A program made the translations under genes and the position numbers. The notes beneath the pieces are model-generated. The model did not search any database. It saw only the letters and a program-made list of their open reading frames with translations, and had not been told where the DNA came from. DNA of 64,000 nt from a virus, in the IMG/VR virus record IMGVR_UViG_3300037258_000514, positions 96,001 to 160,000 of that record; one strand, 5' to 3'. Shown here piece by piece: positions 3,183 through 7,540 of the stretch (positions are counted from its first letter, which is position 1; every line of letters starts with the position of its first letter).

Positions 3183-3941
3183 TTATGTCCACATTAACTT
3201 CATCTTGCCAACAGTCTCAGAAAAGGCTCCTGCCTTCTGTGTTAAGTCTAACTGCATTTGTACGATTACTTGATTATAATCGGTCCAGTTGGATTTAACT
3301 GCTGGTACATTCTGTAAACTAACAGGTACAAGATAAAGATCAGCATCTATTGCTACTGCCGTTGTAGAACTAATCTTCTTAACAAAATCAAATGTATGAA
3401 AAATTTGGATTTTGTGGGCGATATTCGGCATTAGCTTGCTTGCGATAGAAGCGAAGTTTACCCAACTTCCATCAGCTTTAGCAATCTGTAGAGTTAACGC
3501 AGCGGCGTTAATCTGAAAGCTTCGATTATACTTATATGCAGAACCGTCAGTTTCTTTTGCGCCTGTGAGAATTAAATCACTCTCTTCAGCCTGCGCGTCC
3601 GTTAAACTCGACGCACTTAATTCCATTTCGAAGCTGTGGCAAACTGCATGACTACCAGTAGGAATTGGCCGAGCCAGATACCACTCTGCTCCAGCATATT
3701 TCCCGGGCGTAACGCTACCAGATACGCTGAACACTGCGTAATCTAGTACAGGTTCCATTGCATATTCTTGCGGTACTCCATCACTTACGGAACCGCCAGC
3801 TTGTGCTTTCCATGCAGGGTAAAGAGGAACCCAATCTATTATCATATATTCCCCTCCATAAAAATACTCAGGTGTGAGTCGATCAATTTCTTGATCGGCT
3901 TGGGCGGGTATTGTGGGAGAATGCAACCGTTCCTCCCACAA
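3183..3941 (-). CDS. hypothetical protein, probable beta-sandwich (ConA/lectin-like) fold
   Basis: Alternating beta-strand pattern; AQAxExD and QxQLD motifs recalled from acidobacterial proteins; start uncertain. Confidence 0.4.
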   Translation of the reverse strand: MWEERLHSPTIPAQADQEIDRLTPEYFYGGEYMIIDWVPLYPAWKAQAGGSVSDGVPQEYAMEPVLDYAVFSVSGSVTPGKYAGAEWYLARPIPTGSHAVCHSFEMELSASSLTDAQAEESDLILTGAKETDGSAYKYNRSFQINAAALTLQIAKADGSWVNFASIASKLMPNIAHKIQIFHTFDFVKKISSTTAVAIDADLYLVPVSLQNVPAVKSNWTDYNQVIVQMQLDLTQKAGAFSETVGKMKLMWT

Positions 3942-3994
3942 TTTTTATGGCTTCCCAGCTAGCCTTGCATTTAGCTATCTCACACCCGAACTTG

Positions 3995-5332
3995 TTATTG
4001 AATCTTCTCTAGTTCACGAATGAAATTGATGCAAGCTTCACTCCATCCGTCAATGTGTGTCCACTCTCTGTAACCAAGGCCGTTCTTGTTAGAAGCAACG
4101 TTAATTACATACCCTTTACCTTTGGGTGAAGCAATCCCATCGTGGGCTTGTTCATCAGTGAACACAATGATACGATCATAGCCTTCTCTTGAATTAATGT
4201 GCTGTAAAGCTCGTTCAAGATAAGTTGAACCGTGGGGCAAGCTGTTTACGATCGCATCACGTAGAGCAAATCCTCTACGAGCAGGTACTAGCACGCATTG
4301 AGAGCTGAATGTGTAGACAACACAATCAGAACAAATTTCACGCGCTAGCATTGCCACTCCACAGGCAGCATCCATTCTAGTGATCTCAGACTTTCCTGAG
4401 ATTTGCGCTTCCATTGAACCGGATACGTCTATTAATAGAATAGTCTTACCTGTAAGCTTTTCCTGCTCCTTGAGACACTTCATCATACCTGCTTCAAGTT
4501 CTTGCTCAAGTTTCGGAGCATAACGAGCAGCGGCGATGAAGCGGAACGGAAGTACGCGTTCGGTCTTGATGTTTAGCAACGCCTTACGAATATTGGAAAT
4601 GTCGACTCCTGCTTCTTGCATGTTACGCAAGTTGCGAAGGAGAGCCAAAGCGCCCAGCTGATTTTCTGCGAGCTTTGATTCCCATACTGCTTTCTTCTGT
4701 TCCTCTGTCTTCTTTTCCTCTCCTGCCGACAAGGCTACTTCCCAAGTCGAAGCAGGCGGGAGAGTTCCATTAACTAACTGTTTCCAAACTGCTTCTTGCT
4801 CTTCGTCTTTCGGCTTTGCGTGCGACAGGAACAAAACATCACGAAGCTTTACTGCATTGTCTTGGTTGTACTTCGCCAAGTCATAGGCAGAAAACTTATT
4901 GAAAGCCTTTGCAAGACCTTTTTTCACTTGAGCAGAAAGTGTTTTCTTTCCCGGTTGATCTGCCCAGTAGAGTGCAAGGAACTCTGCAAGTTCATCAGCA
5001 CGTTGAATTACACGTGCAAGTGTGTCAGCAACGAGACTACCATCAACATCTTTTCTCTTTGCCAACGAACGGACAAGGAAAAGAGGCATGTGACGAAGCT
5101 TCTGTTGTTCGCGACATTCGATTGCCAACTGTGCAACTTTGTTGGAATCAACATGCTTTGCCGCTTCGAGAACTTGCTCAGAGATCGTCTTACCATCAAC
5201 ATAAAACTGATCTTCAAATAACATCGTTGCAAGAGTTAAACGACGAAGCTGAAGTTCAGGCGAAATCTGAACCGCCTTTGCTCCTTCGTGTGTAAAAATT
5301 GGGTTGGATAGTACGGCTGTGTTTGTACGCAT
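3995..5332 (-). CDS. rsr: Ro60/Rsr ortholog (TROVE + vWA domain RNA-binding protein)
   Basis: THEGA, QRADELAEF, YDLAKY, LRDVLFLSHAKP, TWEVALS, ALLRNLRNM, LPFRF; vWA MIDAS DVSGSM...GST...TDEQ. Confidence 0.95.
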   Translation of the reverse strand: MRTNTAVLSNPIFTHEGAKAVQISPELQLRRLTLATMLFEDQFYVDGKTISEQVLEAAKHVDSNKVAQLAIECREQQKLRHMPLFLVRSLAKRKDVDGSLVADTLARVIQRADELAEFLALYWADQPGKKTLSAQVKKGLAKAFNKFSAYDLAKYNQDNAVKLRDVLFLSHAKPKDEEQEAVWKQLVNGTLPPASTWEVALSAGEEKKTEEQKKAVWESKLAENQLGALALLRNLRNMQEAGVDISNIRKALLNIKTERVLPFRFIAAARYAPKLEQELEAGMMKCLKEQEKLTGKTILLIDVSGSMEAQISGKSEITRMDAACGVAMLAREICSDCVVYTFSSQCVLVPARRGFALRDAIVNSLPHGSTYLERALQHINSREGYDRIIVFTDEQAHDGIASPKGKGYVINVASNKNGLGYREWTHIDGWSEACINFIRELEKIQ

Positions 5333-5373
5333 TTGTTGCCTCCGCCAGAGTCTAGTTGACTCGGAAATTTAAT

Positions 5374-5474
5374 CTACCGGGAACACTCGAGCAACGTAGC
5401 GTTTTAAAGTCCGCAACGACCCACATGGTATGAGGTTATTAGCCTCGAAGTAATGCTACTCTACGCCACGGCAG
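5374..5474 (-). ncRNA. Y-RNA-like element E
   Basis: CUGCCG-UGGCGUA-GAGUAGCAU-UACUUC-insert-GAGUGUUCC-CGGUAG; directly upstream of Ro60. Confidence 0.75.
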
Positions 5475-5478
5475 TTAG

Positions 5479-5814
5479 TTACTCGTAAATACCTAAAACC
5501 TCTTCTTCACGCATCATTAATAGCTTTTCGCCATCGACTTCAATATCTACACCTGAATACGGTCCGAAAAGAACTGTCTCACCGACCTGAATATCAAGTG
5601 GAAACAATTCTCCATGTTCGTTCTTCTTTCCTCGTCCTACAGCTAATACTGTTCCCTTTAGTGGCTTATCTTGAGCTGCATCAGGAATAAACAACCCACT
5701 ATCTGTCTTTGTTTTGGCTTCATGTCGTCGAACGGTAAGACGATCGTGTAGCGGTTTAAACTTTTTTACTGCAAAAGCTGCTTTCTTTTCTTCCTGCATT
5801 GCTGTACTAGGCAT
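5479..5814 (-). CDS. groES: co-chaperonin GroES
   Basis: FKPLHDRLTVRR...GLFIPDAAQDKP..GTVLAVGRG...VLFGPYSG...MREEEVLGI. Confidence 0.95.
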   Translation of the reverse strand: MPSTAMQEEKKAAFAVKKFKPLHDRLTVRRHEAKTKTDSGLFIPDAAQDKPLKGTVLAVGRGKKNEHGELFPLDIQVGETVLFGPYSGVDIEVDGEKLLMMREEEVLGIYE

Positions 5815-5841
5815 TCTATCCCTCTCAGGAGTTTTAAAAAA

Positions 5842-5993
5842 TTAGCTTCGGGAACAAGCGATTCAAGTGTTTTTAGCGTGCTACCATTACACCACCGGCC
5901 AAGTCTATTCGTTATTGGTTGGCCAGCAAGGACTCGAACCTTGACCTCTTCCTCTCAAGGGAAGTAACTCAAATCATAACGCCACGAAGCTAA
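5842..5993 (-). ncRNA. YrlA-like Y RNA (element D) containing a circularly permuted tRNA domain
   Basis: 9-bp terminal stem, shared scaffold; T arm CAAGG-UUCGAGU-CCUUG, acceptor CUGGCCA-ACCA...UGGCCGG, D arm GUGU-AAUGGUA-GCAC. Confidence 0.85.
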
Positions 5994-5998
5994 ATTCT

Positions 5999-6095
5999 AT
6001 CCGCGGGGAATATGCGACTTAGGATAGCCCATACCAATAGGGCAGTTCCCCGATTACACGGTGAAGAAGTAACCCAAATCTATCGCCACGCAGAC
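5999..6095 (-). ncRNA. Y-RNA-like element C
   Basis: GUCUGCG-UGGCGAUA-GAUUUGGGU-UACUUC-two hairpins-GCAUAUUCC-CCGCGGAU. Confidence 0.75.
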
Positions 6096-6109
6096 TTAAA
6101 CTTTAAATC

Positions 6110-6315
6110 GTTCCAGGGAATAGTCGAATCTGGTCGATGTTACCTTTAGGGCTTACTTCATTCGGGTTTCAGTTATTTACTCCCCTACGTGTTTTAGCCT
6201 TATATCTCACATCTAACGGATTTGAAAAGGACGCTTAGCCTTTGTTCAGAAACGCTGTTTTGTTTCTGCTACAGCTGCTAGGTATGAAGTAGCCAGCTTC
6301 TGTCGCCACTGAAAC
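6110..6315 (-). ncRNA. Y-RNA-like element B (long insert)
   Basis: GUUUCAG-UGGCGACA-GAAGCUGGC-UACUUC-about 150 nt-GACCAGAUUC-GACUAUUCC-CUGGAAC. Confidence 0.72.
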
Positions 6316-6319
6316 AAAC

Positions 6320-7138
6320 TTAATCCAAAAACATTGAAACAGTTCCAAAAATTGCGCCTTCTTTGTTTAGCAAAACCTTGTGCCAACCATTAAGGAAGAT
6401 CGTTTTGTGATCTGCGTGCTTTACGCTTCCTCTTGCGTATACAGTTGCATTACGCTTCATCTGGTTAAAACCGCGCTGCTGATGCGGTTCAAGTCTTTCG
6501 TATTCAGCAGGCGAAATAACTGCCTCACCGCGAACGTAAACTGTGTCACCACCAAATCTGTAAAGCTGTTCGCACATGTGCGGTTTGCTTCCACGCCCGC
6601 GACTGATCGGTTCGTTTTTCAAGATTGGATTCTTCCAATCACTTTTAGCAAGAACAAAATTTGGATCAGGAATGAAAAACCATTCACCCTGGCGAAGCCT
6701 CGCAGCATTGCGACGACGATCACGATGACGTGCGCTTAATCCTTGTTCTGCTTCACGTACATCTGTTGGTTTCATTGACTGCTTAGCATCACGAACAGTT
6801 GTTGCATTTCCATCAATTCCGGAAATGAACCAATGCCGTTCATCATGTCCAAGCAACATTCGCGTTACGGATTCACCAAGTTTTTGTCCTACACGATTGA
6901 ACGTAGGAGTTGCTGCCATCAAAACCATGTGACGTTCTTTTGGAACAAGATTTAAGACGTTGAATCTTACATCTGCTCCCTTTTCAACAGCCAACTCAAA
7001 ATGTTCACCTTTCCTATCGTTTACAATGTTGATAAGAAAAGGTGTTGTCCTTCTGTTCCATGGATTGGTACGTAACTCAGACAGCTTGAGTCGCGCTCCC
7101 ATCTTCTCAAATGACCGTTCTAGTGTTTGTAGTTCCAT
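6320..7138 (-). CDS. conserved hypothetical protein (RQGEWFF...HxDH motif)
   Basis: Long ORF with GHDERHWF, RQGEWFFIP and VKHADHKTI motifs; His-rich, possibly metal-binding. Confidence 0.7.
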   Translation of the reverse strand: MELQTLERSFEKMGARLKLSELRTNPWNRRTTPFLINIVNDRKGEHFELAVEKGADVRFNVLNLVPKERHMVLMAATPTFNRVGQKLGESVTRMLLGHDERHWFISGIDGNATTVRDAKQSMKPTDVREAEQGLSARHRDRRRNAARLRQGEWFFIPDPNFVLAKSDWKNPILKNEPISRGRGSKPHMCEQLYRFGGDTVYVRGEAVISPAEYERLEPHQQRGFNQMKRNATVYARGSVKHADHKTIFLNGWHKVLLNKEGAIFGTVSMFLD

Positions 7139-7152
7139 TTTTGTATAATCTC

Positions 7153-7219
7153 CCGGGGAACAAACGACTAAAGGTATATTTTCTCCAATTGAGAAGTAAC
7201 CCTTAGTCTACGCCACCGG
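7153..7219 (-). ncRNA. Y-RNA-like element A (minimal)
   Basis: CCGG-UGGCGUA-GACUAAGGGU-UACUUC-small hairpin-ACCUUUAGUC-GUUUGUUCC-CCGG. Confidence 0.75.
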
Positions 7220-7268
7220 TAAATTATCGAGCAGTCTGGTCTCGTTGTGCCTATAAATATACCAAAAC

Positions 7269-7472
7269 TTAGCTCTTACCAGTTTGCGCATATCGTTGGT
7301 TAGTGATAAGTACGTTGAGTGGTGGTGCAGTATTACTGAAGGGATTGTGTCCTCCTGTGTGATCTTTATCACGCAGGCAAGGACGCTTCGAGAAATCCCA
7401 GCACTTATACATAACGCCACACGTTTCTCTAACTGTAAGTTCTTCGTTCTGTGCGTTAATAACGGCTAGCAT
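7269..7472 (-). CDS. small Cys/His protein
   Basis: AAAGGAGG RBS before MLAVINAQ; CxxxxxHxGxH motif. Confidence 0.5.
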   Translation of the reverse strand: MLAVINAQNEELTVRETCGVMYKCWDFSKRPCLRDKDHTGGHNPFSNTAPPLNVLITNQRYAQTGKS

Positions 7473-7511
7473 TTTACGTCCTCCTTTTAAATTACCAGTG
7501 ACACTACTGGT

Positions 7512-7540
7512 AACGTAATATATTACCGAAGGCATGTCAA
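7512..7540 (-). promoter_or_regulatory. sigma70-like promoter heading the Y-RNA/GroES/Ro60 operon
   Basis: TTGACA-17 nt-TACGTT with AT-rich upstream element. Confidence 0.6.

What the first reader, a model, noticed from the sequence alone, without database searches (positions are those of the whole stretch)
3995..7540. Phage Ro60 operon with a modular array of five Y-RNA-like RNAs: constant scaffold, variable cargo
Seen: five elements (7153-7219, 6110-6315, 5999-6095, 5842-5993, 5374-5474) share stem-UGGCGN(1-3)-GA helix-UACUUC-[insert]-helix UC-GNNURUUCC-stem. The stems differ in sequence but stay paired. Inserts range from about 17 to 150 nt and are unrelated. They are interleaved with a His-rich ORF and groES behind one sigma70 promoter, ending at Ro60. 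Known: bacterial Y RNAs have a Ro60-binding stem and an effector domain (PNPase tether in Deinococcus; tRNA-like in YrlA) and some phages carry them. Inference: one protein is programmed by interchangeable RNA adaptors. The motif differs from the GNCGAA-type Ro site as I recall it.
Basis: partly seen in the sequence, partly recalled or inferred. Interest (0 to 1): 0.85.

Follow-up and report, generated by a model that had tools for sequence, protein, structure and literature searches.

The report
Five Y RNAs beside phage Ro60
An uncultured soil phage carries a Ro60 gene preceded by five small structured RNAs that share one Ro60-docking stem but carry different middle parts. This is a large example of the known bacterial and phage Y-RNA system, not a new kind of system.

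Summary
Five elements on the minus strand (7219-7153, 6315-6110, 6095-5999, 5993-5842, 5474-5374) share a closing stem, a bulged U, GG:CC, an internal loop (CG-N2-4 / GNNURUU), a helix starting G-C, A-U, and (U/C)UACUUC. The 5' motif has 5 hits against 0.05 expected. These are the only five copies in the 176-kb genome. Cognate halves pair at 93% of variable positions, swapped halves at 51%.

The element at 5993-5842 is a YrlA-type tRNA-like Y RNA. The other four share only its Ro60-binding module. The same scaffold occurs in about 1-6 copies upstream of Ro60 in 7 other viral loci and 34 of 36 Acidobacteriota-type bacterial loci. In relatives, the tRNA-like copies match Rfam YrlA (30-52 bits, below its 69-bit cut-off). 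Phage ET08, which has a published YrlA, has three tandem copies of an analogous scaffold.

"Constant Ro60 module plus variable effector module" is the textbook view of Y RNAs. What is new here: five copies, four non-tRNA cargos, a conserved 3'-strand motif (GYUUGUUCC), and elements sitting 2-50 nt after the stop codons of interleaved genes. The sigma-70 promoter is not supported.

The parts
7535..7540 (-). TTGACA hexamer proposed as the -35 of the operon promoter. It is unsupported as a promoter.
   Evidence: Read. No -10 with at least 4 of 6 matches lies at a 16-18 nt spacing. The promoter scan reports nothing here.
7269..7472 (-). 67-aa ORF with a strong AAGGAGG ribosome-binding site and no family match.
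7153..7219 (-). E1, a minimal Y-like RNA of 67 nt. It has the scaffold plus a small hairpin formed with the UUCUC of UACUUCUC.
   Evidence: MFE fold equals the scaffold fold, z = -3.1. Motifs. Seed member of alignment A5, which shows strong covariation.
6320..7138 (-). 272-aa ORF (P0001) from a large family with no Pfam, PHROG or NCBIfam name. The confident all-beta model has no PDB fold match. It is not linked to Ro60 in other loci.
6110..6315 (-). E2, a Y-like RNA of 206 nt with a cargo of about 150 nt of unknown type. ACUUCAU pairs with a distal AUGAAGU. The element starts about 2 nt after the ORF272 stop codon.
5999..6095 (-). E3, a Y-like RNA of 97 nt with a two-hairpin cargo. It has one extra C opposite the bulged U.
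   Evidence: Model R2 finds it at E = 0.03.
5842..5993 (-). E4, a YrlA-type tRNA-like Y RNA of 152 nt. In order it has a 5-bp stem with a 7-nt loop, AGGUC, a T arm (GGUUCGAGUCC), a closed 7-8 bp acceptor-like stem followed by an encoded ACCA, and a D arm.
   Evidence: Rfam tRNA model scores 26.9 bits over the arm, variable loop, T arm and acceptor 3' strand. Rfam YrlA RF02553 scores 18 bits, E = 0.15, over T-AS-D. Fold.
5479..5814 (-). groES (Cpn10), 111 aa.
   Evidence: Pfam PF00166, E = 5e-29.
5374..5474 (-). E5, a Y-like RNA of 101 nt. Its cargo has a GAGG-CUAAUAA-CCUC hairpin with a 7-nt loop. It starts about 2-4 nt after the groES stop codon and ends 41 nt before the Ro60 start codon.
3995..5332 (-). 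Ro60 orthologue, 445 aa, with TROVE HEAT-repeat ring and vWA domains.
   Evidence: Pfam TROVE, vWA_Ro60; PHROG 850. The closest solved structure is Thermus phage phiLo Ro60 (9KOP/9L5Y), E = 4e-26 over residues 13-442.
3867..3990 (-). Strongly structured closed-stem RNA just after the Ro60 stop codon. It lacks the Y scaffold and may be a 3' end structure of the unit.
   Evidence: MFE -52.7 kcal/mol, z = -5.4, 0 of 200 shuffles fold as well. No GGCG/UUCC motifs.

Best explanation
This is a phage Ro60 / Y-RNA locus of the bacterial YrlA/YrlB type. The minus-strand run orf67, E1, orf272, E2, E3, E4, groES, E5, Ro60 is probably co-transcribed.

The five E elements are most likely cut out of that transcript or otherwise accumulate as stable RNAs. 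[quoted passage not shown] That module is a closing stem, a bulged U, GG:CC, an asymmetric internal loop (CG-N2-4 opposite GNNURUU), and a helix beginning G-C, A-U, followed by UA.

The variable part of each RNA then acts as the effector or gate module. E4 carries a tRNA mimic, as in YrlA. E1, E2, E3 and E5 carry other structures that would give Ro60 other partners or different gating. For example, they might recruit host PNPase, as shown for Deinococcus, Salmonella and Thermus phage phiLo.

Shown here: the motifs, the covariation, the exclusive linkage to Ro60 across more than 40 loci, and the YrlA-type topology of E4. Inferred: transcription, processing, Ro60 binding and what each cargo does.
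For: 1. The five copies far exceed chance, and they are the only copies in the genome. All lie within 1.9 kb upstream of Ro60 on the same strand.

2. The pairing is maintained by compensatory change. Cognate halves pair at 93% against 51% for swapped halves within the window. In eight minimal elements from the window and relatives, 93.8% of cells are paired and 14 of 19 pairs change on both sides. Controls with the pairing partner slid by 1-3 columns give 34-52%.

3. A descriptor that did not require UACUUC recovered the same scaffold, with UACUUC present. These hits lie upstream of Ro60 on its strand in IMG/VR relatives, Xanthomonas phage Sopo, Caulobacter phage CcrColossus and 34 of 36 Acidobacteriota-type bacterial loci. 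By contrast, 20 shuffles of the window give 0-5 loose hits each.

4. The tRNA-like copies in those relatives hit Rfam YrlA at E = 1e-4 to 8e-9. E4 hits it weakly over the T-AS-D order.

5. Phage ET08, for which Chen et al. 2014 published a YrlA, has three tandem elements with an analogous scaffold, and the middle one is tRNA-like.

6. The published criteria are met or nearly met: within 4 kb of Ro60 on the same strand, a GNCGAAN0-1G-like 5' motif, and YUAY.

7. The nearest solved Ro60 is phiLo Ro60, which was shown to bind two phage-encoded Yrl RNAs and host PNPase.
Against: There are no RNA data. The run-finding and read-laying route was closed, so expression, ends and processing are unknown.

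No element reaches an Rfam gathering score. E4 scores 18 bits against the 69-bit cut-off for YrlA, and the other four match nothing.

Except for E1, the MFE z-scores of the individual elements are unremarkable, from -0.4 to -1.4.

E2's free MFE fold prefers an alternative pairing of the UACUUC region over helix 2, although the scaffold fold is only 0.8 kcal/mol worse.

The cargos have no homologues, so their structures lack comparative support.
Confidence: 0.8

Rival explanations
1. The scaffolds act in cis and are not free Y RNAs. They would stay on the operon messages as Ro60-binding 3' caps or processing punctuation. Through them, Ro60 with host exonucleases would set the stability or translation of orf67, orf272, groES and its own message.
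For: E2 starts about 2 nt after the orf272 stop codon. E5 starts about 2-4 nt after the groES stop and sits in the Ro60 leader. E1 follows orf67 by 50 nt, and its 3' flank holds the orf272 Shine-Dalgarno sequence.

The same ORF-then-element abutment is seen in relative L001, where elements begin 6-7 nt after stop codons at 5047 and 5661.

A different stable structure follows the Ro60 stop codon.
Against: In Sopo, ET08, CcrColossus and the Acidobacteriota-type bacterial loci, the same elements stand in tandem with no ORFs between them.

Characterised homologues (YrlA/B, Yrn1/2, phiLo Yrl1/2) are discrete RNAs processed from precursors.

E3 and E4 follow no ORF.
Confidence: 0.1
2. The elements are decayed tRNA-derived or repeat sequences spilling over from the neighbouring phage tRNA island. 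They would have no dedicated relation to Ro60.
For: The operon lies directly upstream of a tRNA cluster on the same strand. E4 contains tRNA-like arms. Phage Ro60 genes often sit among tRNA genes.
Against: Four of the five have no tRNA-like arms.

The conserved parts are the non-tRNA scaffold motifs.

Covariation shows selection for the scaffold pairing.

No scaffold copy lies elsewhere in the 176-kb genome, including its tRNA island.

The scaffold tracks Ro60 across phages and bacteria that lack adjacent tRNA clusters.
Confidence: 0.04
3. The elements are structured RNAs that serve another protein of the operon, such as the 272-aa protein or GroES, or that act as decoys against host tRNA-targeting nucleases without Ro60.
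For: The 272-aa protein is conserved, of unknown fold and encoded between E1 and E2. The cargos of E4 and E5 show hairpins with 7-nt loops resembling anticodon loops.
Against: Neither orf272 nor groES accompanies the scaffold in any other locus, whereas Ro60 always does.
Confidence: 0.05

Closest known systems
YrlA / YrlB Y RNAs of bacteria and phages (Chen et al. 2014, PMC4201824; Rfam RF02553)
   Same: They are encoded within a few kb of Ro60 on the same strand. They have a 5' GNCG-type motif in a stem formed by the two RNA ends, and a conserved UA (YUAY) where the effector domain begins. One RNA per locus has a T arm, a closed acceptor-like stem and a D arm in that order (E4). Further RNAs in the locus lack the full tRNA mimic. 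They are probably processed from a polycistronic precursor.
   Different: There are five copies, whereas two have been characterised per species. The 5' motif is GGCG-N2-4-G rather than GNCGAAN0-1G. A 3'-strand motif (GNNURUUCC here, GYUUGUUCC across the clade) is strongly conserved, while the paper says only the 5' strand is recognisable in Salmonella and M. smegmatis. Protein genes are interleaved. E4 scores far below Rfam's cut-off.
Thermus phage phiLo Ro60 with Yrl1 and Yrl2 (PMC12135203; PDB 9KOP, 9L5Y)
   Same: It is a phage-encoded Ro60, and the best PDB match of this protein (E = 4e-26, full length). Its Y-like RNAs are encoded just upstream. In that system, binding of the RNAs and a ternary complex with host PNPase were shown experimentally.
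   Different: phiLo has two RNAs recognised by a CGAA motif. Here there are five with GGCG-N2-4-GA. No tRNA-like member is described for phiLo. Nothing has been tested for this phage.
Deinococcus radiodurans rsr locus (Yrn1, Yrn2 and RNAs a, b, d; RYPER complex)
   Same: Several small RNAs lie upstream of rsr. [quoted passage not shown] A Y RNA tethers Ro60 to PNPase.
   Different: The Deinococcus RNAs are of the metazoan-like lineage, with a different Ro60-binding helix and a different orientation of the tRNA-like arms.
Mycobacteriophage ET08 Ro locus (published YrlA host record GQ303260)
   Same: Three tandem elements upstream of Ro share a scaffold (stem, GCCGA(A/G)(A/G)G, helix, UUAYC ... 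CCAUGU, stem). Their cargos differ, and the middle one is tRNA-like.
   Different: The 3'-strand motif is of a different type (CCAUGU against GYUUGUUCC). There are three copies rather than five, and no ORFs lie between them.

Membership tests
YrlA family (Chen et al. 2014 criteria) | Encoded within about 4 kb of a Ro60 orthologue, on the same strand | tested here: met
   All five lie 42-1887 nt upstream of the Ro60 start codon on the minus strand. No other copy exists in the genome.
YrlA family (Chen et al. 2014 criteria) | GNCGAAN0-1G motif near the 5' end | tested here: inconclusive
   The copies read GGCGUAG (E1, E5), GGCGACAG (E2), GGCGAUAG (E3) and GGCGUUAUG (E4). GNCG and the closing G are kept, but the AA is not. 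Same-scaffold relatives carry the exact GGCGAAG.
YrlA family (Chen et al. 2014 criteria) | Conserved YUAY (UA kink) where the variable/effector region begins | tested here: met
   UUAC is present in E1, E3, E4 and E5, and CUAC in E2, directly after helix 2. (A/U)UACUUC is present in 61 of 73 related elements.
YrlA family (Chen et al. 2014 criteria) | tRNA-like domain with a T arm, a closed acceptor-like stem and a D arm, in that order | tested here: met
   This is met for E4 only. E1, E2, E3 and E5 have no T arm, so they are YrlB-like companions and not YrlA.
Rfam RF02553 YrlA | Score at or above the gathering threshold of 69 bits | tested here: not met
   E4 scores 18 bits, E = 0.15, over model positions 30-81. 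The other four elements give no hit. For calibration, the published ET08 YrlA scores only 37.4 bits, and same-scaffold relatives score 30-52 bits.
Y RNA (functional class) | Bound by Ro60 through the terminal stem | not testable with these tools
   This needs RIP or EMSA. It is supported only by linkage and by analogy with phiLo, Salmonella, M. smegmatis and Deinococcus.
Y RNA (functional class) | Accumulates as a discrete small RNA | not testable with these tools
Ro60 / Rsr protein | TROVE HEAT-repeat ring plus a C-terminal vWA domain | tested here: met
   PF05731 at E = 7e-11, PF25045 at E = 2e-8, PHROG 850 at E = 3e-54. Full-length match to phiLo Ro60.

The most novel reading that the evidence does not exclude
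The Y scaffolds may double as message punctuation. In this phage and its nearest viral relative, several elements begin about 2-7 nt after the stop codon of the preceding gene. Ro60 docking on them, with or without excision, could therefore set the 3' ends and stability of each cistron, including its own message. In that case the five different cargos would recruit different partners to different messages. That would make Ro60 a regulator of its operon in cis, not only a free RNP.
Probability: 0.12. Interest if true: 0.65.

Novelty: new member of a known kind. Interest (0 to 1): 0.4.

Why it matters
Y RNAs are thought to programme Ro60 by pairing one docking module with different effector modules. 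However, only one or two RNAs per bacterial or phage species have been studied.

This locus and its relatives offer natural sets of about 3-6 paralogues with the same docking module and very different cargos. They also provide about 70 sequences that define the docking module on both strands, namely the bulged U, GG:CC and a GYUUGUU loop.

That gives a ready design for binding-site mutagenesis and for asking what non-tRNA cargos recruit. It does not change the concept.

Tried and rejected
- **MAFFT on whole elements.** Alignment of the five whole elements scrambled the 3' halves because the inserts differ 10-fold in length.
- **Single-sequence model R1.** It found only itself.
- **Eight-sequence model R2.** It found E1, E3 (E = 0.03) and E5 (E = 2.1) but missed E2 and E4. 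Covariance models cope poorly with 90-150 nt cargo swaps. I therefore used a hand-written descriptor in Python. The third model build was not used.
- **Rfam.** At gathering thresholds it reports only the tRNA genes.
- **IMG/VR pattern scan.** The scan with the 14-base 5' pattern returned 116 loci, but only 6 held a full scaffold. The rest are chance hits, so it gave no useful census.
- **DNA search of phage records.** It found no near relative.
- **The 272-aa ORF.** It has no Pfam, PHROG or NCBIfam match. Foldseek PDB gives nothing at E <= 0.001, and VIA-align wide gives a best Z of 3.7. No homologue lies near Ro60 in the other loci.
- **Sixth element.** The genome has five scaffold copies, and the structured RNA at 3990-3867 lacks the scaffold.
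- **Unavailable sources.** The supplementary tables of Chen et al. 2014 and the 2019/2020 Wolin reviews are not held.
Full report
**What is there**

The window is part of a 176-kb uncultured phage record. On the minus strand, in order, lie:

- a 67-aa ORF (7472-7269)
- element E1 (7219-7153)
- a 272-aa ORF (7138-6320)
- E2 (6315-6110), E3 (6095-5999) and E4 (5993-5842)
- groES (5814-5479)
- E5 (5474-5374)
- a 445-aa Ro60 with TROVE and vWA domains (5332-3995)

Each ORF has a Shine-Dalgarno sequence. A tRNA cluster follows on the same strand.

**Check of the observation**

The 5' pattern TGGCG-N1-5-GA-N5-10-TACTTC occurs five times in the window against 0.05 expected. It occurs nowhere else in the 176-kb genome. 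The 3' pattern TCGNNTRTTCC occurs six times against 0.78 expected, and five of those partner the 5' motifs.

The common architecture is as follows:

- a closing stem of 4-9 bp
- an invariant G-C pair, then a bulged U, then GG paired with CC
- an asymmetric internal loop, with CG plus 2-4 nt on the 5' side and GNNURUU on the 3' side
- a second helix that always begins G-C, A-U
- then (U/C)UACUUC, followed by the cargo

At the variable stem positions, each element's own halves pair in 56 of 60 cases. Halves from different elements pair in 123 of 240. Forcing the scaffold costs 0-4 kcal/mol relative to the free minimum-energy fold.

The cargos run from 17 to about 150 nt. They have no similarity to each other, to the rest of the genome or to relatives, apart from T-arm words.

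The promoter claim is not confirmed. TTGACA at 7540-7535 has no acceptable -10 at a proper spacing, and the scan finds none. No terminator-like site lies on this strand within the unit.

**What the elements are**

E4 contains, in order:

- a 5-bp stem with a 7-nt loop
- AGGUC
- a T arm (GGUUCGAGUCC)
- a closed 7-8 bp acceptor-like stem whose 3' strand is followed by an encoded ACCA
- a D arm (GUAAUGGUAG type)

The Rfam tRNA model aligns the first four parts at 26.9 bits. The Rfam YrlA model (RF02553) aligns T arm, acceptor-like stem and D arm at 18 bits, E = 0.15. T arm before D arm with a closed acceptor stem is the published YrlA topology.

Chen et al. 2014 define YrlA candidates by three features: location within about 4 kb of Ro60 on the same strand, a 5' GNCGAAN0-1G motif, and a conserved YUAY at the start of the variable region. 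The crystal-structure paper singles out the UA as a conserved kink. All five elements have GGCG-N2-4-G and UUAC or CUAC in the corresponding places.

E1, E2, E3 and E5 have no T arm. They therefore correspond to the second, non-tRNA Y RNAs (YrlB, Yrn2) found in every characterised species.

**Relatives**

The Ro60 protein finds 87 phage records, seven IMG/VR loci and 36 bacterial loci, almost all of them Acidobacteriota, at 52-66% identity.

I wrote a descriptor that requires only four things: GG(C/U)G, UU(C/U)C, a closing stem and a second helix starting with G and ending with C. It recovers all five window elements. The variant rerun on all loci, filtered for UACUUC, recovers four of them. 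Twenty shuffles of the window give 0-5 loose hits each.

In the relatives, the hits that also carry UACUUC, which the descriptor did not require, almost all lie upstream of Ro60 on its strand. Copy numbers are:

| Locus | Copies |
|---|---|
| IMG/VR L001 | 5 (three by descriptor, two seen by eye) |
| IMG/VR L002 | 3 by descriptor, at the same places as in L001 |
| L003 | 3 |
| L004 | 3 |
| Xanthomonas phage Sopo | 4 |
| Caulobacter phage CcrColossus | 4, plus two more Rfam YrlA hits |
| Acidobacteriota-type bacterial loci (34 of the 36) | 1-4 |

The bacterial arrays are typically one short element of about 75-90 nt followed by tRNA-like elements of about 130 nt.

Eight minimal elements from the window and relatives align cleanly. 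They show 93.8% pairing, and 14 of 19 pairs change on both sides. Controls with the pairing partner slid by 1-3 columns give 34-52%.

Across 73 elements, the 3' loop consensus is G-Y-U-U-G-U-U followed by CC, and (A/U)UACUUC follows helix 2. Several bacterial copies read GGCGAAG, which is exactly the published motif. The tRNA-like copies in relatives match Rfam YrlA at 30-52 bits, E down to 8e-9, and some match over the full model.

Mycobacteriophage ET08, whose YrlA is in the 2014 paper, shows three tandem elements upstream of its Ro gene. Their scaffold is analogous: GCCGA(A/G)(A/G)G, UUAYC, and CCAUGU before the closing stem. The middle one is tRNA-like and scores 37.4 bits on RF02553. Even a published member is thus below Rfam's 69-bit cut-off.

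**Mechanism**

The nearest solved protein is the Ro60 of Thermus phage phiLo, at E = 4e-26 over the full length. It binds two phage-encoded Y-like RNAs and forms a ternary complex with host PNPase.

The literature already describes Y RNAs as a Ro60-binding module plus an effector-binding module. It also suggests that additional Y RNAs widen the range of Ro60 complexes.

I therefore read the locus as a Ro60 gene with five Y RNAs that are co-transcribed and processed. Each would dock through the shared module. E4 presents a tRNA mimic and the others present different structures.

E4's 7-bp acceptor-like stem followed by an encoded ACCA suggests RNase P cleavage, as shown for M. smegmatis YrlA. 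This is an inference. Transcription, processing, binding and the partners of each cargo are all untested.

**Rivals**

The main alternative is that the scaffolds act in cis. The evidence for it is their position:

- E2 begins about 2 nt after the orf272 stop codon.
- E5 begins about 2-4 nt after the groES stop codon.
- E1's 3' flank carries the orf272 ribosome-binding site.
- In L001, elements begin 6-7 nt after stop codons.
- A different, very stable structure (z = -5.4) follows the Ro60 stop codon.

Against it, the same elements stand in tandem without ORFs in Sopo, ET08, CcrColossus and the bacterial loci, and the characterised homologues are free RNAs.

Two other readings fit poorly. The idea of tRNA-island debris is contradicted by the covariation, the strict Ro60 linkage and the absence of copies in the genome's tRNA island. 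The idea of RNAs serving the 272-aa protein or GroES is contradicted because those genes are absent from every other locus.

**Novelty**

This is a new member of a known kind. The following appear to be undescribed in the papers I could search, where no more than two named Y RNAs per bacterial or phage species appear:

- arrays of about 3-6 elements
- the conserved 3'-strand motif
- four non-tRNA cargos in one locus
- elements abutting interleaved genes

The scan's own notes show that other first readers flagged this same stretch. One counted six Y RNAs, whereas I find five.

**Limits**

The supplement of Chen et al. 2014 and two reviews are not held. I therefore cannot say whether multi-copy arrays are listed there.

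Noticed in passing
window 3867-3990 (minus strand): A 124-nt RNA directly after the Ro60 stop codon folds into a 12-bp closing stem around three hairpins (MFE -52.7 kcal/mol, z = -5.4). It has no Y scaffold motifs and is followed by a U-rich run. It may be a 3' end structure or another small RNA.
   Followed up: partly
window 6320-7138 (minus strand), protein P0001: This 272-aa protein has more than 1000 homologues of about 265 aa, many from Terriglobales. Its invariant motifs include GHDERHWF and RQGEWFF, plus HxDH. It has no Pfam, PHROG or NCBIfam name. The confident AlphaFold model (pLDDT 89.6) is mostly beta and has no PDB match (best Z 3.7). This is a large uncharacterised family.
   Followed up: partly
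window 5842-5993, inner part about 5895-5925: E4's acceptor-like stem is 7 bp and is followed by an encoded ACCA before the closing loop. RNase P and 3' trimming could therefore yield a two-piece RNA with a free CCA end, as reported for M. smegmatis YrlA.
   Followed up: partly
L049 (Caulobacter phage CcrColossus) 4128-4195; L008 (Brevundimonas phage Gurke) 4766-4840: The annotated 'tRNA-Gln' in CcrColossus lies inside a Y-RNA-like element (4119-4293). The 'tRNA-Ser' in Gurke sits in the non-coding gap upstream of its Ro60. Both are probably mis-called tRNA-like domains of YrlA-type RNAs.
   Followed up: partly
L012-L047 (genome contigs): The closest cellular relatives of the phage Ro60 (52-66% identity) are almost all Acidobacteriota, mostly Acidobacteriaceae/Terriglobales (Terracidiphilus, Granulicella). 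This hints at an acidobacterial host for the phage. ORF272 homologues also come from Terriglobales.
   Followed up: no
G000:C1:93809-93917 and 94805-94923 (minus strand), just outside the window: There are two weak full-length matches to Rfam YrlA (19.4 and 18.9 bits, E about 0.015-0.02) in the tRNA island upstream of the window. They lack the scaffold motif and may simply be tRNA-related, since weak YrlA hits also appear in 13 of 14 control genomes.
   Followed up: no
window 7476-7512 (minus strand): An 8-bp hairpin (UUACCAGU ... ACUGGUAA) sits in the leader just before the ribosome-binding site of the 67-aa ORF.
   Followed up: no
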